DNA from: Shewanella sp. VB17
GTDB lineage: Bacteria > Pseudomonadota > Gammaproteobacteria > Enterobacterales > Shewanellaceae
Length of the DNA stretch: 32,000 nt
Direction of reading: 5' to 3'
NCBI RefSeq assembly: GCF_013248905.1
Contig: NZ_JABRVS010000001.1
Location: 2,927,273 to 2,959,272 of the forward strand
The translations under genes and the position numbers were made by a program. The notes beneath the pieces were generated by a model. That model had not been told where the DNA came from, searched no databases, and worked only from the letters and a program-made list of their open reading frames with translations. This document shows, one piece after another, positions 4,801 to 24,124 of the stretch (position 1 is the first letter of the stretch; every line of letters starts with the position of its first letter).

Positions 4801-7800
4801 TTACGCAATTAATTCAACTTCTTTGCCATTAGTGTCCTTATTTAATTGCGCTGGAACACGAGGTTTACTGCCGATGAGCTTCTTTATATCTTCAATTGCT
4901 AAGTATAAACAAGGCATCAGTATTAAGGTGACCACGGTTGCAAACAGCACACCGAAGGCGAGGGAGGTCGCCATAGGGATCACCATTTTGGCTTGCATAC
5001 TGGTCTCTGTCATGATTGGCATTAAGCCGATGAAAGTGGTGAGTGATGTCAACATAATGGCTCTAAAGCGTCGACACCCCGCTTCAATCACTGCTGTTTT
5101 CATTACGATCCCCGCTTCCCTTGATTTGTTAATATGATCCACCATCACCAGAGAGTCATTGATGACGACTCCGGCTGCTGCGATGATGCCAAAGAGTGAC
5201 AATGCGCTGAGATCTATTCCCATGATCATATGACCCATAACAGAGCCTATAATACCAAATGGGATCACTGCCATGATCATCATAGGTTGAGAGTAAGATT
5301 TAAGCGGTATGGCCAACAAACTGTATATGATCAATAAGGAGATAATAAAGTCTCTTAATTGTGTCTTCGTGCTGTCAATTTGTTCTTGGATATTACCCGA
5401 CACTTCACTTTTTACTTTAGGATAGAGTGTTAATAATTGCGGTATAAAGTCATCGCGAATATCTTGAGCGAGTTTGAATGGCTCCGCTTGGGCGGCATCG
5501 ACAGAGGCCCAGACATTGATGGTGCGATTGCCATTTTCACGGCGAATATAACTGACTCCTTGTGTGACAGTGACATTGACGACGTCAGACAGAGGAACTT
5601 CAACGCCTTGGGGCGTGACTATCAATACATCAGAGACCTGAGCGATGGAGTTTCGTTGTGATTCTGGGTATCTGAGCATGACTTTTATTTCAGTCCCGTT
5701 ACGCAAAATTCTTTGTGCTTCAAGACCATAGAAGCTATTACTGACCTGAGAGGCAATATCAGCTAATGTAAGTCCTAAACCATAGGCTTGCGGTTTGAGT
5801 TGAAATTGTAATTCCTTCACACTAGATTGGCGGCTGTCGTTGATATCACTAACGCCTTTGAAGGTATTTAGCTTGTTTTTTAACGCGAGGGACGCAGCAA
5901 GTAATTGCGCTTCGTTCTTGCTTTCCAAGCGGAAGCTAATATCGCCATCATCACGCCCCCCGTCGAAGAGATTATCTTGAATTTCAAATGATTTTATTCC
6001 TGGGATCTGTGGTATAGCCTGACGCCAAAGTTCAGCTAATTGAAAAGTGTTCAGAGGTCTTATCTCTGGATCCACCAGTTTAGTCATGACTTTCGCTGAG
6101 GTGCGGCCTCCAAGTTCGACTTGCATGTCAGAGACCATGGCCTGATCATATTGCTCTTCAAGTTGTTTATCGACATCATAAATCGCTCTTTTGATCGCTA
6201 ATGCCGCCGTTAACGTGGCTTTTTCTGAGGCGTCGACATTCATCTCTATTTCGATTTGTGGGAAGTCATGGGGGATCTTGGGTTGACCGATAAAGCGAAC
6301 GAGACCACCTGCATAAAGGCCTGCACAGATAAGCATAAAACTGATAAAGACCATGATGGTGGTATAATGATATTTAACTGCTTTTTTGAGGGCAGGGCGA
6401 TAGACAGAGTTAATAAACAGGTGCAGAGTACGATCGACTCTATCTTGGATAGCATTGATAATATTTCTGAGCCAATCTAATGGGTTCTTTGAGCCTGGTT
6501 TGACGATGGTTTTTTGTTTCATTCTTGCTAAGTGGGCAGGCAAAATCAGCTTTGACTCTACCAATGAAAAAATAAGGCATAAAATAACGACAGTGCCTAT
6601 TGCTTTACCAAAAGCTGAGGTGGGTCCATCACTAAGGGTTAAAGGTGTAAAAGCGGCGATAGTGGTTAATACACCAAACGTGGCTGGTATAGCAACTTTC
6701 TTTACCCCGCGTATGACATTGTCTAAACTCTGACCATTTTTGTCACATTCATCATAGGCACTCTCTCCCATGACAATGGCGTCATCGACCACAATACCAA
6801 GGACCAATATAAAGGCAAACAGACTGATCACATTGACGGTGACATCTAACATGGGCATCGGCATCAATAGCAAGGCACCGAGGAAGCAAACTGGTAATCC
6901 CATCATGACCCAAAATGCTAATCGCACACGTAGGAAAAGTGCCAACATGATAAAGACTAAAATAGCCCCACTTTTCATGCTATCTAGCATGAGATCTAAC
7001 CGACCTTCGAGGTAATAGGACATATCTACCCAGGTTTCAAGTTTCAACCCTTCAGGTAAGATGTTCTGTTTTTTGGCAACGTACTTTTTCACGATATCAG
7101 CGACATCAGTCATGCTTTGATCGTTTGCAGCCCCGACAAAAAAAGTCACTGAGTTTTTGCCATTGAACTTAGAGTATTGAATGCCTTCCTCGAATCCATC
7201 AATGACAGTCGCAATATCTCCCAATAAGACATTGGTACCATCTTTTAAGGTAATTAACGGTAAATTTTCAAATTCATATCCGACATACGCTTGATTTTGG
7301 ACTCGCAAATTGATGTAACCCGTTTCTGCACGTATTTGTCCTGCAGACATGTTGCGTGAAAAGCCTTGTACCGCTTTAGCGACGTCGTTAAAATTCAGGC
7401 CAAATTCACGTAATTTATCTTTACTCACTTCAATGGCAATTTCATAATCCAGACCGCCATAGAAGTCTGTAATATTCACTGAAGGTAATTGCATCAACTC
7501 ATCGTGAATATTTTCGCCTAATTCTTTGAGCTGTCGGTGCGTTATATCACCATATAAGCTTATGTATAGCACTTCTTGTCGCAACTTAATACGCTCAACC
7601 TTAGGCAGCTCCATACCGTCTGGAAAGCTAGAAATGGAATCGATTTCAGATTTTATTTCATCCAGTACAACTTGTGGATCGTAGGAGTCTTCTATTCGAA
7701 AATACCCTGATGCTTGGCCTCGATTTGAATAAGTTATCACACGTTTAAGGCCTTGAACGCTTTCTAATGCTTCTTCAATTTTAATGGTGATCCCTTCTTC

Positions 7801-19280: not shown

Positions 19281-20213
19281 TTAACTTTGTTCTAAAGGAG
19301 ATTTATACCCGTCAGGCTTAATGGCTAATAAATCACAGTTAATGCTATCGATCACATGTTCTGCTGTATTTCCTATCAATGCTGCAGAAAATCCAGTTCT
19401 GCCTACGGTGCCTAAAATGACCAATTCCGCATCTAATTGCATAGCAAGATCGGGGATCACATCTTCAGGTAAACCTTCTTTTATATGACAGCAATCTTGA
19501 CTAATGCCCAATGTTAAGGCGAGATCGAATACCCTTTGCTCATGTTGGAGCCTAATTGTTTGACTATAAGCATGAGCATCAAAATCGGGCAATTCGATAG
19601 CAAGATTAATCGGCGTACCTGGGTAACCGTTGACAAGATGAACTTGAGCATCAAACTGTTTAGCAAGCGCTTTTGCACACTCAATAATTTTATGATTGAG
19701 TGTAAGATGATCTTTATCCTCTGATCCAACATTAATAGCACATAATATTTTACCTGCTACAGGCCAGTCATGTTCTTTAACTAACAACACTGGGGCAGGG
19801 GATTTACGCATCAAATGCCAATCTGTTGGGGTAAAAATAACCGACTTGAGTTTATCATGCTCATGGGTCCCTTTGATAATGAGATCAAAATTGCCAGAAA
19901 TAGCATGCTGAATAATACTCTCAAAGGGGCGGTTGTGCCAAATGACTTCACTTTTAATGCTGATCTCTGGACAAGCATACTGCTCTAGCACCTCATCAAG
20001 CCAGGCTTGTCGTTGAGCAATGACGCCTTTTCTCATGGATTCACGCTCTTGGCCTGATAAAATCGAGGTCATTTCATAAGAAAAATCATAAATGGAAAGG
20101 AATACAGTTATGCTCGCTTGATTGTGGGTGGCGAGCTCAATTGCTCTTGCGAGTGCGGGTTGTGGATCACTGGTTGGATCAATGACAACTAACAGATTTT
20201 TATATTCTTTCAT
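19281..20213 (-). CDS. uspE: universal stress protein E (tandem Usp domains)
   Basis: 310 aa with two Usp domains (GTHEHDKL..., LGTVGRTGFSAALIGNTAEHV). Sits next to ttcA, and in related genomes next to fnr. Confidence 0.85.
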   Translation of the reverse strand: MKEYKNLLVVIDPTSDPQPALARAIELATHNQASITVFLSIYDFSYEMTSILSGQERESMRKGVIAQRQAWLDEVLEQYACPEISIKSEVIWHNRPFESIIQHAISGNFDLIIKGTHEHDKLKSVIFTPTDWHLMRKSPAPVLLVKEHDWPVAGKILCAINVGSEDKDHLTLNHKIIECAKALAKQFDAQVHLVNGYPGTPINLAIELPDFDAHAYSQTIRLQHEQRVFDLALTLGISQDCCHIKEGLPEDVIPDLAMQLDAELVILGTVGRTGFSAALIGNTAEHVIDSINCDLLAIKPDGYKSPLEQS

Positions 20214-20356
20214 ATTTTTGTCCCTTACTCATTTTATACCATTAATAATGGCGCATATCGCGTAAAATACATTGTTTTAGATCAAGTTAGCCCATATTGC
20301 TTAACTTGTTATACCATTGTTTTAAAATAAGTAAATTAATTATTGTCTCATTAATA

Positions 20357-21274
20357 TTAATTGATCACATACCAATGTTTACGAGGTATGAGCACCGGAT
20401 GTTTAATCGGTGTAGGCTCACGATATTGATAGTTCTTTAACGCATTAATAGTTACAGGTGTATTAAACAATATTATAGGCAATGTAGCATTAGTGCTTAA
20501 CATTCGTTTGCTGCGTGTATCACCAGTATTCTTACACCATATATCGATTAAAGGTTGAACTCGTGCAAATCTTATTTCAGTTATTTTTGCACTTGAAGAA
20601 ACTCGACTCATTAATTCTCTTTCTTTTTCGTAACGGGCTATGAGTTCTTCTTTATTTAAACCAAAGCATTCGAAGTTTTTTGCATTGATGCTGGATTTTA
20701 AAATATCAGCGGCAACATCATGTTTGACGTGATGTTGCATTTTTTTAGCGCGCCAATAAAAATTAACAGATGATATTTCATCGACGATTGTATCCATATA
20801 TTTCATTTTTCTGACGGCACTAAGAAGTACTAGATTAGGGATAAGTTCATGTAAGTTTTCATGGATGAGTTGTCGTTTCGCAAAACCCACTTTAATCGAA
20901 TCACTAAAAATGACTCGACGTTGGTTAACTTCATTGTTTAACTCGATGAATTCATCTTTCGATTTTTTAGGTAAAACAATTAATCCAGGAAAACGCTTTG
21001 CTAAATAGGTATTTTCATTGAATGCGTCAATTTTCAGTTGAGTTATTGCTTGCCGAGCATAACGCTTTGTCTGCTCGGTTATTTGCGTAAGCTCTTCCAT
21101 GACTTTAATATTGCTAGGAGTGGTATTTTCTTCACCTATTTTATTGGCGGGCAACGTGTACATACAAATATTAATCATATTGTCACAGACAAAAGTGGCT
21201 AGCTCAGAAAGGGCCTCTGCCAGTTGCAAGTGGTTGGTTTTTATATACGAATTCAGGGTAGCTCTATTGGTCAT
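20357..21274 (-). CDS. tus: DNA replication terminus site-binding protein Tus (divergent homologue)
   Basis: 305 aa vs 309 aa for E. coli Tus. Collinear blocks by eye: YTLPANK/FSLPEVK, KRFPGLIVL/VRLPGVLCY, HELIPNLVLLSAVRKM/HRHLPGLITLNAYRTL, EIRFARVQPLIDIWCK/KIKRPVKVQPIARVWYK, LPIILFN/PLIALIN, and C-terminus VLIPRKHWYVIN/LIIPRLHLYVAD. Confidence 0.85.
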   Translation of the reverse strand: MTNRATLNSYIKTNHLQLAEALSELATFVCDNMINICMYTLPANKIGEENTTPSNIKVMEELTQITEQTKRYARQAITQLKIDAFNENTYLAKRFPGLIVLPKKSKDEFIELNNEVNQRRVIFSDSIKVGFAKRQLIHENLHELIPNLVLLSAVRKMKYMDTIVDEISSVNFYWRAKKMQHHVKHDVAADILKSSINAKNFECFGLNKEELIARYEKERELMSRVSSSAKITEIRFARVQPLIDIWCKNTGDTRSKRMLSTNATLPIILFNTPVTINALKNYQYREPTPIKHPVLIPRKHWYVIN

Positions 21275-21303
21275 ATTAATTACGGCATACAGGCTAAAAA
21301 TTA

Positions 21304-21332
21304 AGTATCTACTTGATAAATAAAGCTGTCAA
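21304..21332 (-). promoter_or_regulatory. candidate tus promoter
   Basis: The minus strand reads TTGACA (21332-21327), 17-nt spacer, GATACT (21309-21304), about 30 nt upstream of the tus ATG. Confidence 0.4.
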
Positions 21333-21333
21333 A

Positions 21334-21354
21334 CGTTAATTTTCAAAATTAACG
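21334..21354. promoter_or_regulatory. 21-bp perfect palindrome immediately upstream of the tus -35 (operator candidate)
   Basis: CGTTAATTTT-C-AAAATTAACG: 10-bp arms around a single central base. Confidence 0.4.
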
Positions 21355-21496
21355 ATTAAATAACATTTAATGAGCATCCTAGCGATATCCTCGAAAATGA
21401 ACTCATCTACAGCATCTATATTACCTTTATTGGATGTTTTTCAAGCTACCGCAAAGTAAATATAACCAACTTATCCTCTCACTAAACCCAAAGCAT

Positions 21497-21512
21497 TTTT
21501 TTATGGTGACAC
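21497..21512. repeat. left copy of the 16-nt repeat TTTTTTATGGTG[A/T]CAC
   Basis: TTTTTTATGGTGACAC. Identical to the right copy except one base. Contains GTGAC (a matS-type half-site). Confidence 0.6.
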
Positions 21513-21539
21513 AGTTTAAATAGACTATTGATAAACTGC

Positions 21540-21577
21540 TCTTTATGCAACATAATTAGAGTTATGTTGCATAAAGA
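21540..21577. other. dif/lox-like palindromic candidate recombination site (16-6-16)
   Basis: TCTTTATGCAACATAA TTAGAG TTATGTTGCATAAAGA. All 16 arm positions pair and the spacer is asymmetric. The inner 11-nt arm TTATGTTGCAT matches the E. coli dif XerD arm TTATGTTAAAT at 9/11. The site can also be parsed as a 13-8-13 lox-type site. It lies in the divergent tus / recombinase-operon intergenic region. Confidence 0.6.
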
Positions 21578-21602
21578 CATAATGCCCGATGAGGCTATTG
21601 TA

Positions 21603-21618
21603 TTTTTTATGGTGTCAC
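21603..21618. repeat. right copy of the 16-nt repeat TTTTTTATGGTG[A/T]CAC
   Basis: TTTTTTATGGTGTCAC, 106 bp (about 10 helical turns) from the left copy. TGGTGTCACCA is itself an 11-bp palindrome containing GTCAC. Confidence 0.6.
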
Positions 21619-21666
21619 CATGATTGAGTGCTTGGCAAAATAATAGTATGAGATATAGGAATAGAA

Positions 21667-22215
21667 TTGTTAATAACACAAGAAAGAGTAGAACAAGATG
21701 ACAATTACACTCCGCCTAAATGGATTTATGATAACGGACGTACTGGGCGAGGTTATAACCTCAGAATGTTATCAATCACAGAGATAAAAATTTCTGCTGA
21801 TTTATTAAAAACATGGTTATCAAACATTAACATTTCAGATAATCCGTCATGGTATAAACCTTTTGCAAGTTCTACAGAATATCAATCCCATCAATCCTAT
21901 TTTTTACGTTTACTTAGAACGATTAAACAATGTGAAATTGAAGGTGAAGGTATATCAATACATGAAATGAACACCTTAAACCAAGAACTAAGCCGCATTT
22001 TTTCTGATGAGGGCTGGCGACACATGAAGCAAAAATTTAGTCAACAAGCAAAACGGAAGCGTAAAGCAAGACCAGAGATCTCGTCTTCACTACTTAGCAA
22101 GCTTCACCATGTTAAGACGACTCAAGGTTTTACTAGCCTTGATGAGGTCATTGATGAATTATTGTCTTTTTACCATGATAATCAAAATTCAAATGGTGCA
22201 TGTTGTGAAAAATAA
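21667..22215 (+). CDS. hypothetical DNA-binding protein with C-terminal ribbon-helix-helix (MatP-like linker/RHH)
   Basis: 182 aa. TTG start with AGGA 6 nt upstream. Basic patch AKRKRKAR followed by a beta-alpha-alpha pattern: PEISSS-LLSKLHHVKTTQG-FTSLDEVIDELLSFY. GWRHMKQ...KRKRK resembles MatP GWIDKHM..RMKQTIRARRKRH (E. coli sequence recalled from memory). Confidence 0.6.
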   Translation: MLITQERVEQDDNYTPPKWIYDNGRTGRGYNLRMLSITEIKISADLLKTWLSNINISDNPSWYKPFASSTEYQSHQSYFLRLLRTIKQCEIEGEGISIHEMNTLNQELSRIFSDEGWRHMKQKFSQQAKRKRKARPEISSSLLSKLHHVKTTQGFTSLDEVIDELLSFYHDNQNSNGACCEK

Positions 22216-23323
22216 TACTGAACTGACGCCATCTTATGGCGATTTACCGCAATCCATCGCACCAACATCAATTCAAGAATCACTGTTAGACACACGTAGT
22301 TTACTTGAAAAACGCCTCAAATCACAGTTGGCTTTATCCTCAGATCTGGTTGATCAAGATTTAGTACGATTACTCATTAAACATTTACTGGCAGACTTTG
22401 CGAAAAATGATAGCGGTTTATCAGATAACACCATTAAGACATTGTTTATCTATTGGCAAAGTTTTGAATTGTGGTGTCACAAACATCAATGTACTTCACT
22501 ACCAGCATCGGCGACCACATTTGTCGACTACATGAATGATAGAAAGTCAGCGGTAAAAATGAATACCTTAAGCCAATATCGCTGGGCCGTAAGTAAAATT
22601 CACTTAGCTGCCGGATTACCTTCACCCTGTCATACTCAAAAATCAATTGATGTAGTGGGCGGGATCAGAAAACAAAAAATCAGATCAAGCGAACTTGTCA
22701 CACAAGCAAGTCCATTTCGCAGTTCACACTGTGATGCGCTAATTGATTTGTGGATTGGATCTGGAACACCTTTGCAATATAGAAATTTAGCGATAATGGT
22801 AACGGCGTATGAAACGATGATGCGTGAAAGTGAGTTAGCACGAATTGAGTTAGCGCATATAAGTTATCAATCAGATGGTCGTGCGACTTTGCTTATTCCT
22901 TTCACAAAAACAAATATATCTGGTGATCCCGATACCGTCATGTTGAGTCGACAATGTGTTAAAATTATAAATAATTATTTGTCTCATACGGTGAATAAGT
23001 CTAATTTTCTATTTAAGAAAATGACACGAAATGGCAAGCCAGCACAACACAACGGTCCTATTTCTCGTTACACTGTCGACAGGGTTTTTAAACGTGCCTT
23101 TAATGATTTATGTACAAAAAATATAAATTTAACTCATGAAATAGCACCATGGTCTGGGCACAGTGCTCGAGTTGGAGCTTGTCAGGATCTATTAAGTGCT
23201 GGCTATTCTATTCTCGAAGTTCAGCAAGCGGGTCGCTGGGCATCAAGTGAAATGGTTTATCGTTATGGTAGAAATATATTAGCAAAAGAATCTGCAATGG
23301 CCAAAGCACGTTGGGGACGCTAA
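22109..23323 (+). CDS. Cre-family tyrosine site-specific recombinase
   Basis: WSGHSARVGACQDLLSAGYSILEVQQAGRWASSEMVYRYGRN vs P1 Cre WSGHSARVGAARDMARAGVSIPEIMQAGGWTNVNIVMNYIRN. RNLAIMVTAYETMMRESELARI vs Cre RNLAFLGIAYNTLLRIAEIARI. Catalytic R239 K267 H351 R354 W377 Y386 (maximal-ORF numbering). The true start is probably internal: ATG 22154 has GAGG 7 nt upstream, and ATG 22193 is the other candidate. Overlaps the upstream gene. Confidence 0.85.
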   Translation: MLRRLKVLLALMRSLMNYCLFTMIIKIQMVHVVKNNTELTPSYGDLPQSIAPTSIQESLLDTRSLLEKRLKSQLALSSDLVDQDLVRLLIKHLLADFAKNDSGLSDNTIKTLFIYWQSFELWCHKHQCTSLPASATTFVDYMNDRKSAVKMNTLSQYRWAVSKIHLAAGLPSPCHTQKSIDVVGGIRKQKIRSSELVTQASPFRSSHCDALIDLWIGSGTPLQYRNLAIMVTAYETMMRESELARIELAHISYQSDGRATLLIPFTKTNISGDPDTVMLSRQCVKIINNYLSHTVNKSNFLFKKMTRNGKPAQHNGPISRYTVDRVFKRAFNDLCTKNINLTHEIAPWSGHSARVGACQDLLSAGYSILEVQQAGRWASSEMVYRYGRNILAKESAMAKARWGR

Positions 23324-23328
23324 CAATA

Positions 23329-23365
23329 AATACAGATGCAGCATCGATCCTTTTGCATCTGTATT
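23329..23365. terminator. bidirectional terminator between the recombinase gene and fnr
   Basis: AATACAGATGCA / TGCATCTGTATT 12-bp stem with a 13-nt loop. Confidence 0.6.
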
Positions 23366-23374
23366 AACGGTTTA

Positions 23375-24124
23375 TTATCGAAGAGTCGTGCTACTTTGAG
23401 CAAGTTTATTAAGTTCACTAAAATTAATAATTGTGATGTATTTACCTTTCACTTCAATTAATTCCGCCTTTTTCAACCGGCTGATTAAGCGGCTAATCGT
23501 TTCAGCAGTTAATCCTAAGTAATTAGCAATATCTCCTCGAGTCATGGTCAATCTAAATTCTTTTGATGAAAAGCCACAGCTACCAAATCGTACGGCTAAA
23601 TTACTAATAAATGCCGCTAATTTCTCTTCGGCATTTTTTTTACTTAAGAGTAAAATCATGTCTTGATCACTGCGGATCTCATTACTCATCAAACGCATTA
23701 TTTGTTGTCTTAGTTTTGGTATTGTCCCACTGATGTCAGTAAGTGTTGAATATGGAATTTCACAGACCATTGATGTTTCAAGTGCTTGGGCAAAATTTGT
23801 ATGCTGTTGAGAATAAATAGCATCGAAACCCACGACATCACCCGCAAGATGAAACCCCGTAATTTGTTCATCACCTTGTTCTGTAATAGTAAAGCTTTTA
23901 ATCGTACCAGAGCGAATAGCAAAAAGAGAGCTTAGCTTATCCCCTGATTTAAAAATTTGCTCACCTTTTTGCAATGGCTTTTTTCTTTCAATGATATCGT
24001 CGAGGCGGTCGAGTTCAACACTATTAAGCGTAAAAGGCATACATAAAGCACCCATATTACAATTGTGACAATGAATGGCAGATCCAGAATGAATTGAACC
24101 ACGACTGTTATTACTGTCTGTCAT
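23375..24124 (-). CDS. fnr: fumarate/nitrate reduction transcriptional regulator (oxygen-sensing CRP/FNR family)
   Basis: 249 aa, collinear with E. coli FNR ([16 protein letters not shown] cysteine cluster, [52 protein letters not shown]). Confidence 0.95.

What the first reader, a model, noticed from the sequence alone, without database searches (positions are those of the whole stretch)
21667..22215. 182-aa RHH protein with MatP-like linker, translationally overlapped with the recombinase gene
The C-terminal 45 residues follow a ribbon-helix-helix pattern: beta PEISSS, helix LLSKLHHVKTTQG, helix FTSLDEVIDELLSFY. They are preceded by the basic stretch QQAKRKRKAR. The segment EGWRHMKQKFSQQAKRKRK...GFTSLDEVIDELL resembles E. 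coli MatP NGWIDKHM..RMKQTIRARRKRH...GKTLSETIVQLIED, where the E. coli sequence is recalled from memory. The MatP C-terminal coiled coil, which mediates tetramerisation and ZapB contact, is missing, and the N-terminal 90 residues are unrelated by eye. The gene overlaps the recombinase ORF by 23-107 nt depending on the recombinase start, which suggests coupled expression. It could be an accessory or architectural factor, or a directionality or regulatory factor, for the recombination site. It could also be a truncated Ter-organising protein.
Basis: inference. Interest (0 to 1): 0.6.

Follow-up and report, generated by a model that had tools for sequence, protein, structure and literature searches.

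The report
DNA-binding partner of Cre-type recombinase
The 182-residue gene is real and encodes a small ribbon-helix-helix DNA-binding protein from an undescribed Shewanella family that always accompanies a Cre-like recombinase and its lox-like site; it is not a relative of the chromosome organiser MatP.

Summary
The ORF (21667-22215, TTG start) is a real, conserved gene. Its C-terminus is a ribbon-helix-helix (RHH) domain. Support comes from a profile match to the solved RHH protein SvtR (E 0.0012), an AlphaFold strand-helix-helix region, and top Foldseek hits to NikR, ParD and TCP RHH domains, all at non-significant E-values.

No Pfam, NCBIfam or PHROG model reaches threshold. Only 34 cluster representatives exist among 1.8 billion proteins, and all identified hosts are Shewanella.

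Every member whose flank I could read lies beside a Cre-type tyrosine recombinase:
- On Shewanella megaplasmids it sits upstream, usually overlapping by 4-32 nt. This includes the plasmid that gave SCre/SloxP.
- On 16 of 36 Shewanella chromosomes the two genes are divergent, with strict co-occurrence.

A 13-bp palindrome, [AG]TGGT-N3-ACCA[TC], is over 100-fold enriched in module intergenic DNA. In three modules, including this window, two copies bracket the lox-like core at about ±50-56 bp, 105-107 bp apart.

Best reading: a module-specific DNA-binding partner that autoregulates the operon and builds an accessory architecture on the natural site.

MatP kinship is not supported. The N-domains are unrelated, there is no coiled coil, and there is no Ter-wide site set.

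The window's tus-site-RHH-recombinase cassette is plasmid-derived. It is inserted between uspE and fnr, 15 kb from dif. This scan had already noted the cassette, the site and the recombinase on this same window.

The parts
21667..22215 (+). Small gene, 182 aa, TTG start. It has an N-terminal helical domain (about residues 1-132, with conserved W19, Y21, G29 and N105..F112-S-D-x-G-W117..Q126..K129-R130) followed by a C-terminal RHH.
   Evidence: It is 48% identical to the homologue on plasmid pPN3F2_1. On the family tree it groups with the plasmid/operon-type members at 100/99 support.
22069..22191 (+). RHH domain proper (residues 135-175): strand R-P-E-I-S, helix 140-153, helix 158-175.
   Evidence: The C-terminal profile matches the solved RHH protein SvtR (2kel) at E 0.0012. 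The top Foldseek hits are the RHH domains of NikR, ParD and TCP, at non-significant E-values.
21609..21621 (.). Perfect 13-bp palindrome ATGGTGTCACCAT, the candidate operator or accessory site. It lies 46 bp upstream of the TTG start, and its centre is 56.5 bp from the centre of the core site.
   Evidence: The identical 13-mer occurs four times, about 100 bp apart, upstream of the homologous gene on S. algae plasmid pKC-Na-R1.
21503..21515 (.). Imperfect left copy, ATGGTGACACAGT. Its centre is 49.5 bp from the core centre and 106 bp from the right copy.
   Evidence: Both the position and the TGGTG half-site are conserved in pPN3F2_1, while the DNA between them has diverged.
21540..21577 (.). 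lox/dif-like core site: 16-6-16 perfect palindrome with spacer TTAGAG. It is unique in the 5.17-Mb genome.
   Evidence: The core in pPN3F2_1 is near-identical over the aligned core, with one change in the spacer and one in each outer arm. It has the same ...ATAA-N6-TTAT... geometry as SloxP.
22193..23323 (+). Cre-type tyrosine recombinase, 376 aa from the most likely start. It overlaps the small gene by 23 nt.
   Evidence: phmmer gives E 1.5e-36 against P1 Cre over the full length. It is 68% identical to the pPN3F2_1 recombinase and 39% to the ANA-3 plasmid recombinase.
20357..21274 (-). Tus homologue (replication terminus-site binding protein), transcribed divergently from the small gene.
   Evidence: Pfam Ter PF05472 at E 2e-22. 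It is 51% identical to the Tus of pPN3F2_1, which lies 3.5 kb upstream of that plasmid's small gene in the same relative orientation.

Best explanation
The gene encodes a sequence-specific RHH DNA-binding protein that is the dedicated partner of a Cre-type (SCre-like) recombinase module. It most likely binds as a dimer to the 13-bp palindromes of type [AG]TGGT-N3-ACCA[TC]. These lie in front of its own gene and, in this window, on both sides of the lox-like core site at about five helical turns each. From these positions I infer two functions. First, it represses the operon, so that little recombinase is made; the recombinase is translated by coupling through the 23-nt overlap. Second, it places a protein-DNA architecture around the natural recombination site that restricts or directs recombination, for example favouring resolution of replicon dimers. 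What is shown: the gene is real and conserved; it has an RHH fold; it is strictly linked to the recombinase; the palindromes are conserved and their spacing is kept. What is inferred: that the protein binds those palindromes, that it represses, and any effect on recombination. It is not needed for catalysis, because the related SCre recombines a minimal 34-bp site on its own in human cells and in E. coli (PMC3082901). The whole cassette (tus, site, small gene, recombinase) came from a Shewanella megaplasmid and sits in the chromosome's terminus region.
For: Real gene and family: 34 representatives at E<1e-3, with conserved motifs. RHH fold. Linkage to the recombinase: the small gene lies directly upstream of the recombinase on 5 of 5 plasmids inspected and on one metagenomic contig, overlapping by 4-32 nt in five of these and separated by 38 nt in one. 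On chromosomes the two genes are divergent neighbours in every locus where both flanks were held. Presence and absence match exactly in 36 Shewanella species: 16 have both and 20 have neither. Candidate operator: 23 copies in 8.5 kb of module intergenic DNA against 3 in 139.5 kb of flanking DNA. A copy lies 12-46 bp upstream of the start codon in many modules. Link to the core site: in the window, pPN3F2_1 and pHDC555-1, two copies bracket the core at 49.5-56.5 bp, 105-107 bp apart, although the core and motif sequences differ and the intervening DNA has diverged. On ANA-3 plasmid 1, a related motif occurs exactly four times in 279 kb: two copies next to SloxP and two directly upstream of the small gene. 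The strand residues of the RHH differ between subfamilies (R-P/T-x versus H-I-E), in step with the central bases of the palindrome (G-N-C versus T-N-A). Plasmid origin. Insertion between uspE and fnr: the two genes are adjacent in 9 of 9 relatives.
Against: All RHH evidence is individually weak: E about 1e-3 for the profile match and Foldseek E>1. The motif was defined on the same loci in which it was then counted. The related species and plasmids are not independent samples. In the chromosomal modules the palindromes lie 106-1480 bp from the core, all on one side, which fits plain promoter operators better than a fixed recombination architecture. On the ANA-3 plasmid, the two copies next to SloxP could equally be the operator of a distal promoter for the co-directional genes that follow. 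Promoter-like hexamers in the window are no more frequent than in shuffled sequence. L008 and L036 show no copy of the strict motif.
Confidence: 0.62

Rival explanations
1. It is mainly an architectural accessory protein for recombination, comparable to PepA/ArgR/ArcA at cer and psi, or to the accessory TnpI motifs of Tn4430. Bound on both sides of the core, it would impose a topological filter, so that the Cre-type enzyme only resolves dimers and never makes them. Transcriptional control would be secondary.
For: The core is bracketed at about ±50-56 bp with a conserved 105-107 bp (ten-turn) spacing in three modules whose core sequences differ. Co-occurrence with the recombinase is strict. Motif copies lie next to SloxP, 3.6 kb from the small gene, on the ANA-3 plasmid. 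The core is a single copy per replicon, as expected for a resolution site.
Against: SCre needs no helper on minimal sites (PMC3082901). The chromosomal modules show no fixed distance between palindromes and core. There is no direct evidence that the protein oligomerises or contacts the recombinase.
Confidence: 0.25
2. It is a diverged or truncated MatP relative that organises the terminus region of the chromosome.
For: It has the same order of parts: a helical N-domain, a basic stretch and an RHH. hhalign aligns the basic stretch plus RHH of the two families at P 8.5e-4. Both recognise, or would recognise, a 13-bp palindrome. Canonical MatP was not found in the four other Shewanellaceae genomes searched or in this genome. 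The gene lies 15 kb from dif. The invariant W-x-Y-x7-G spacing near the N-terminus is the same in both families, but this is not statistically supported.
Against: hhalign probability is only 24%, and the N-domains give P 0.4. BLASTP gives E 2.7. There is no Pfam MatP hit in any of 30 members. Foldseek returns no MatP chain. There is no C-terminal coiled coil. The palindrome occurs 14 times in the genome against about 6 expected, scattered rather than clustered at Ter, and only local pairs occur in three other complete genomes. The family is found on plasmids and in only 16 of 36 species, so it is not a core chromosome gene.
Confidence: 0.04
3. It is a plasmid-maintenance RHH of another kind: a centromere-binding protein (ParG/ParR-like), or an antitoxin that regulates its own operon.
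For: It has an RHH fold. Arrays of in-phase palindromes lie upstream of the gene, for example four copies about 100 bp apart on pKC-Na-R1. Weak sub-threshold Pfam hits go to the RHH regions of HicB-like and VapB-like antitoxins.
Against: No ParA/ParM-type NTPase gene or toxin gene is adjacent in any module inspected. The downstream or neighbouring gene is always the recombinase.
Confidence: 0.05

Closest known systems
Unnamed ORF directly upstream of the SCre recombinase gene on Shewanella sp. ANA-3 plasmid 1 (WP_011711688.1, annotated as hypothetical protein). The SCre/SloxP system is described in Suzuki & Nakayama 2011, PMC3082901.
   Same: It is a homologue (28% identity over 98% of the query, tblastn E 1e-7). 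It has the same position, immediately upstream of a Cre-type recombinase, and the same 23-nt overlap. The two recombinases are 39% identical. The core sites share the ...ATAA-N6-TTAT... geometry.
   Different: On the ANA-3 plasmid the lox site lies 3.6 kb from the operon, and the repeated motif is a longer variant. That ORF has never been studied, and the SCre paper does not mention it. That WP_011711689.1 is SCre itself (ABK50591) is inferred from the plasmid and from the SloxP position; I did not check it by accession.
MatP (macrodomain Ter protein) of Enterobacteriaceae and Vibrionaceae
   Same: It has an N-terminal helical domain followed by a basic stretch and an RHH, and a 13-bp palindromic target. 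There is weak profile similarity over the RHH part. MatP's domain plan was taken from PMC12756933.
   Different: The N-domains are not detectably homologous. There is no coiled coil and no Pfam MatP hit. There is no Ter-wide set of sites. The family is tied to a recombinase and to plasmids.
Small RHH transcription regulators (SvtR of SIRV1, PDB 2kel; the CopG/Arc/omega type)
   Same: This is the best sequence match of the C-terminal domain (E 0.0012). Palindromic or repeated operators lie in front of the protein's own gene.
   Different: This protein carries an additional conserved helical N-domain of about 130 residues. The most conserved block of the family (N..N..FSD.GW....Q..KR) lies before the RHH strand.
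Accessory factors of tyrosine-recombinase resolution systems (PepA/ArgR/ArcA with XerCD at cer and psi; accessory TnpI repeats at the Tn4430 IRS)
   Same: The proposed logic is the same: extra protein-binding sites next to a simple core site, on a replicon that needs dimer resolution.
   Different: The proteins are unrelated. Here the sites bracket the core symmetrically in three modules, and the function is untested. This comparison rests on my own knowledge of those systems.

Membership tests
MatP (Pfam PF06303 MatP N-terminal, with the MatP C-terminal RHH) | Sequence match to the MatP family model | tested here: not met
   There is no PF06303 hit for the window protein or for any of 30 family members. 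The genome-wide six-frame search of the window's own genome found nothing at E<=10. BLASTP against an enterobacterial MatP gives E 2.7.
MatP | N-terminal four-helix bundle homologous to that of MatP | tested here: not met
   hhalign of the two N-domain alignments gives probability 0.15% and P 0.4. Foldseek of the full model against PDB lists no MatP chain among 41 hits. The model does show four helices before the RHH, but their packing could not be compared.
MatP | RHH homologous to the MatP RHH | tested here: inconclusive
   hhalign aligns the basic stretch plus RHH at probability 24%, P 8.5e-4, over 55 columns. This level is also reached with unrelated RHH proteins such as SvtR.
MatP | C-terminal coiled coil for tetramerisation and ZapB contact | tested here: not met
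   The protein ends 7 residues after the second RHH helix (model helix 158-175 of 182 residues).
MatP | Many target sites concentrated in the terminus macrodomain | tested here: not met
   ATGGT-N3-ACCAT occurs 14 times in 5.16 Mb (about 6 expected), scattered along the chromosome. In G003 and G013 the only clustered copies lie beside the module; the few others, and all copies found in G023, are scattered.
Ribbon-helix-helix superfamily | Strand-helix-helix motif of about 45 residues with a basic N-terminal arm | tested here: met
   The C-terminal profile matches SvtR (2kel) at E 0.0012. AlphaFold2 gives an extended segment 133-139, then helices 140-153 and 158-175. The Foldseek top hits are the RHH domains of NikR, ParD and TCP, at rmsd 0.5-2.7 A over 30-42 columns, with non-significant E-values. 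No Pfam RHH model reaches threshold.
Ribbon-helix-helix superfamily | Dimer with a two-stranded antiparallel sheet that binds repeated or palindromic operators | not testable with these tools
   Only monomer prediction is offered. Indirect support: a conserved 13-bp palindrome is enriched more than 100-fold next to the genes of this family.
Partner ORF of SCre-type recombinases (undescribed family) | Homology to the ORF upstream of the recombinase on ANA-3 plasmid 1 and other Shewanella plasmids | tested here: met
   tblastn hits 15 Shewanella plasmids at E 6e-39 to 2e-6. On the tree the window protein sits within the plasmid/operon-type clade.
Partner ORF of SCre-type recombinases (undescribed family) | Adjacent to a Cre-type tyrosine recombinase and a palindromic ...ATAA-N6-TTAT... 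core site | tested here: met
   Window. Relatives. Co-occurrence is 16 of 16 present and 20 of 20 absent.
Recombination directionality factor (excisionase) | Works with an integrase on attL/attR sites that carry arm-type sites and flank an integrated element | tested here: not met
   The site is a single, perfectly palindromic simple site with no second copy in the genome. The recombinase is Cre-type over its full length.

The most novel reading that the evidence does not exclude
The small protein is the control subunit that turns a Cre-type recombinase into a regulated dimer-resolution device for large replicons. Selection keeps such modules in the terminus region of Shewanella chromosomes: chromosomal modules in 16 of 36 species lie 38-105 kb from dif in five complete genomes, and in this genome, which lacks that chromosomal type of module, a plasmid-type module lies 15 kb from dif. 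That would be a chromosome-terminus recombination system running alongside XerCD/dif, with its own protein-based control in place of FtsK.
Probability: 0.12. Interest if true: 0.8.

Novelty: new variant of a known kind. Interest (0 to 1): 0.5.

Why it matters
Cre-type recombinases are treated as self-sufficient enzymes acting on bare 34-bp sites, and they are mined as genome-engineering tools on that basis. Here a whole branch of them, including the source of SCre, carries a conserved and unannotated DNA-binding partner. Conserved partner sites bracket the natural lox-like site. If the partner controls expression or imposes selectivity, it shows how these enzymes are kept safe on low-copy replicons, and it could supply a natural on/off or directionality handle for the SCre family. 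The finding also settles a question: Shewanella has no hidden MatP here. Finally, it shows a second recombinase module, in two different forms, lying near dif in many Shewanella chromosomes. Why it lies there is unexplained.

Tried and rejected
1. MatP kinship: tested with Pfam, BLASTP, two hhalign runs and Foldseek, and rejected except for generic RHH similarity.
2. A Ter-wide regulon of binding sites: rejected.
3. A second copy of the core site, which would have indicated an inversion switch or an excisable element: none found.
4. The palindrome arms as Ter sites for the neighbouring Tus: half-site matches with up to 2 mismatches show no clear fork-trap polarity. I did not pursue this further.
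5. The word-indexed homologue search found only the query itself and, with the profile, two more proteins.
6. The search for related loci failed on the broad alignments. It found nothing for the window's subfamily in genome or metagenome contigs.
7. No phage homologue by tblastn, and no viral structural match.
8. No Rfam family in 20200-23400.
9. The promoter scan is no better than shuffled sequence.
10. Aligning the insertion junctions with relatives' uspE-fnr spacers was uninformative at this divergence.
12. The 300-aa long forms of the family (P0003, P0005, P0008, P0015) have no Pfam domain in their extra N-terminal part. Their genomic context could not be looked up under the tool rules.

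Full report
**Observation.** The window holds an open frame at 21667-22215 (+), giving 182 aa from a TTG start. To its left lies a minus-strand 305-aa gene that is a clear Tus homologue (Pfam Ter, E 2e-22). To its right lies a tyrosine recombinase frame that overlaps it. The whole block sits between uspE and fnr. An AlphaFold2 model built from an 8-sequence alignment (pLDDT 77, pTM 0.60) gives helices 37-53, 69-92, 98-111, 114-132, 140-153 and 158-175, with an extended linker at 133-139.

**It is a real gene of a small, undescribed family.** No Pfam, NCBIfam or PHROG model reaches threshold for it or for 30 aligned relatives. A full phmmer scan of 1.84 billion cluster representatives finds 34 proteins at E<1e-3, the best being 51% identical. 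The alignment shows a conserved N-terminal W-x-Y...G-R-x-L-x-L-L block. The strongest block lies just before the RHH: N..LN..FSD.GW....Q..KR. Six-frame searches find the family in 16 of 36 Shewanella species and in none of 24 other families of the order. tblastn finds it on 15 Shewanella megaplasmids and on no plasmid of another genus. No phage record matches.

**RHH: supported by several weak lines.**
- The family profile's best PDB match is SvtR (2kel), a solved RHH protein, over exactly the basic arm, strand and two helices. The match is E 0.098 with the full profile and E 0.0012 with the C-terminal profile.
- Foldseek of the C-terminal model gives no significant hit. Its top hits are mostly RHH domains (NikR, ParD, TCP) at rmsd 0.5-2.7 A.
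- Sub-threshold Pfam hits fall on the RHH parts of HicB-like and VapB-like antitoxins.

**MatP: not supported as kin.** I fetched 11 MatP genes from genomes of the order.
- The N-terminal domains give P 0.4.
- BLASTP gives E 2.7.
- Foldseek of the full model lists no MatP chain.
- The protein has no room for a coiled coil.
- MatP's defining behaviour is many sites across Ter, and that is absent. The candidate 13-bp site occurs 14 times in the genome (about 6 expected), scattered along the chromosome. In G003 and G013, the only clustered copies are next to the module.

Canonical MatP was not found in this genome or in the four other Shewanellaceae genomes searched. It is present in 23 of 81 genomes of the order. 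One oddity remains: both families have invariant W-x-Y-x7-G near the N-terminus. This has no statistical support.

**The constant companion is a Cre-type recombinase with a lox-like site.** The window recombinase matches P1 Cre over its full length (E 1.5e-36).
- On plasmids pPN3F2_1, ANA-3 plasmid 1, pKC-Na-R1, pHDC555-1 and pSBAL11701, and on a metagenomic contig, the small gene lies directly upstream of the recombinase. The overlaps are 11, 23, 4, none (38-nt gap), 32 and 14 nt respectively.
- Starting the window recombinase at ATG 22193 aligns it from residue 1 with the ANA-3 enzyme. The true overlap here is therefore most likely 23 nt, not 107.
- ANA-3 plasmid 1 is the source of SCre/SloxP (PMC3082901). 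SloxP lies 3.6 kb upstream of that operon.
- In the 16 Shewanella chromosomes, the small gene and a recombinase of about 345 aa are divergent neighbours. The recombinase is found in exactly the 16 genomes that have the small gene, and in none of the other 20.
- Between the two genes lies an invariant 30-bp palindrome, TACCAGTGATAA-NCGTCA-TTATCACTGGTA.

**Candidate binding sites.**
- A 13-bp palindrome, [AG]TGGT-N3-ACCA[TC], occurs 23 times in 8.5 kb of module intergenic DNA. It occurs 3 times in 139.5 kb of the flanking sequence held. A copy often lies 12-46 bp before the small gene's start.
- The window's right copy, ATGGTGTCACCAT, is identical to four copies spaced about 100 bp apart upstream of the homologue on pKC-Na-R1.
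- In three modules with different core sequences (window, pPN3F2_1, pHDC555-1), two copies bracket the core at 49.5-56.5 bp on each side, 105-107 bp apart.
- An alignment of the window with pPN3F2_1 shows that only the core and the two flanking motifs are conserved. The DNA between them has diverged.
- On ANA-3 plasmid 1, a longer variant of the motif occurs exactly four times in 279 kb: two copies beside SloxP and two directly in front of the small gene.
- The central bases of the palindrome differ between operon-type and chromosomal modules, in step with the first residues of the RHH strand.

Two caveats apply. The motif was defined on these same loci, and the modules are related to one another.

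**Mechanism.** SCre recombines minimal sites alone in HEK293 cells and in E. coli, so the small protein is not a catalytic cofactor. The evidence best fits a site-specific DNA-binding partner that sits on palindromes at its own promoter and around the natural core site. It would autoregulate the translationally coupled operon and shape or restrict recombination. Which of the two roles dominates cannot be decided by computation. The chromosomal modules, with palindromes on one side at variable distances, look more like plain operators. The three bracketed plasmid-type sites look architectural.

**Origin and place of the cassette.**
- Against pPN3F2_1, the small protein is 48% identical, the recombinase 68% and Tus 51%. 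The core site is nearly the same and the gene order matches.
- The tree puts the window protein inside the plasmid/operon clade at 100/99 support.
- uspE and fnr are adjacent (gaps of about 130-330 bp) in 9 of 9 Shewanella relatives, so the 3.16-kb block is an insertion.
- The cumulative GC skew peaks at about 2.94 Mb. A canonical dif lies at 2,964,266, and the gene lies at 2,948,939, 15 kb from dif.
- XerD and a second Xer-like gene are present, so the module is additional to XerCD/dif.
- The chromosomal-type modules of five complete genomes lie 38-105 kb from their dif sites.
- Tus is sporadic in the genus (13 of 121 species) and is partly on secondary replicons.

**Comparison with what is known.** The nearest thing is the unstudied ORF upstream of SCre. 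I found no paper that mentions a partner protein for Cre-type recombinases, but the library does not cover all journals. Earlier notes of this scan had already flagged the cassette, the palindrome, the repeats and the recombinase on this same window. One of them gave me the SCre lead, which I checked myself.

Noticed in passing
G000:C1:2964266 (about 5 kb beyond the window's right end): A canonical XerCD dif site, 3 mismatches from E. coli dif. The cumulative GC-skew maximum falls at about 2.94 Mb, so the window spans the replication terminus.
   Followed up: partly
L002-L008 and L022-L026 (Shewanella chromosomes): A chromosomal module in 16 of 36 Shewanella species: a Cre-like recombinase of about 345 aa, an invariant 30-bp palindrome TACCAGTGATAA-NCGTCA-TTATCACTGGTA, and a divergent small gene. 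It lies 38-105 kb from dif in five complete genomes. The site is invariant while the small proteins are only 46-63% identical. I did not establish why it is kept near the terminus.
   Followed up: partly
L044:6640-6975 (S. algae plasmid pKC-Na-R1): Tandem repeats of about 100 bp, each carrying ATGGTGTCACCA[TC], give four in-phase copies of the palindrome upstream of the small gene. Further upstream lies a separate GC-rich repeat of about 100 bp (6080-6440).
   Followed up: no
window 21331-21357: A 13-1-13 near-palindrome (AAACGTTAATTTT / AAAATTAACGATT) lies upstream of tus and abuts a TTGACA-17-GATACT promoter-like site on the minus strand. It is unrelated to the TGGT...ACCA motif. No candidate regulator was identified.
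   Followed up: no
window 22193-22380; L038:6494-; L039:6590-: These Cre-type recombinases carry an N-terminal extension of about 60 residues relative to P1 Cre (Cre residue 25 aligns with residue 64). The extension contains a conserved S-Y-G-[DE]-x-P block and could be a contact surface for the small protein.
   Followed up: no
Genus-wide search: G149 C2/C3, G140 C2, G021 C26: Tus is sporadic in Shewanella (13 of 121 species). One genome carries three copies on two secondary contigs. In G021, tus lies about 5 kb from a chromosomal-type recombinase, and there the recombinase and the small gene are 6.6 kb apart.
   Followed up: no
L038:7619-8197, L044:8750-9124, L045:5725-6294: A DUF2913 gene follows the recombinase on three plasmids. 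A DUF4942 gene precedes the small gene on ANA-3 plasmid 1 and pSBAL11701. Neither is present in the window's cassette.
   Followed up: no
P0003, P0005, P0008, P0015: Long forms of the family (303-313 aa) have the family domain in the C-terminal half and an extra N-terminal part of about 120 residues with no Pfam match. Their genomic context could not be looked up.
   Followed up: partly
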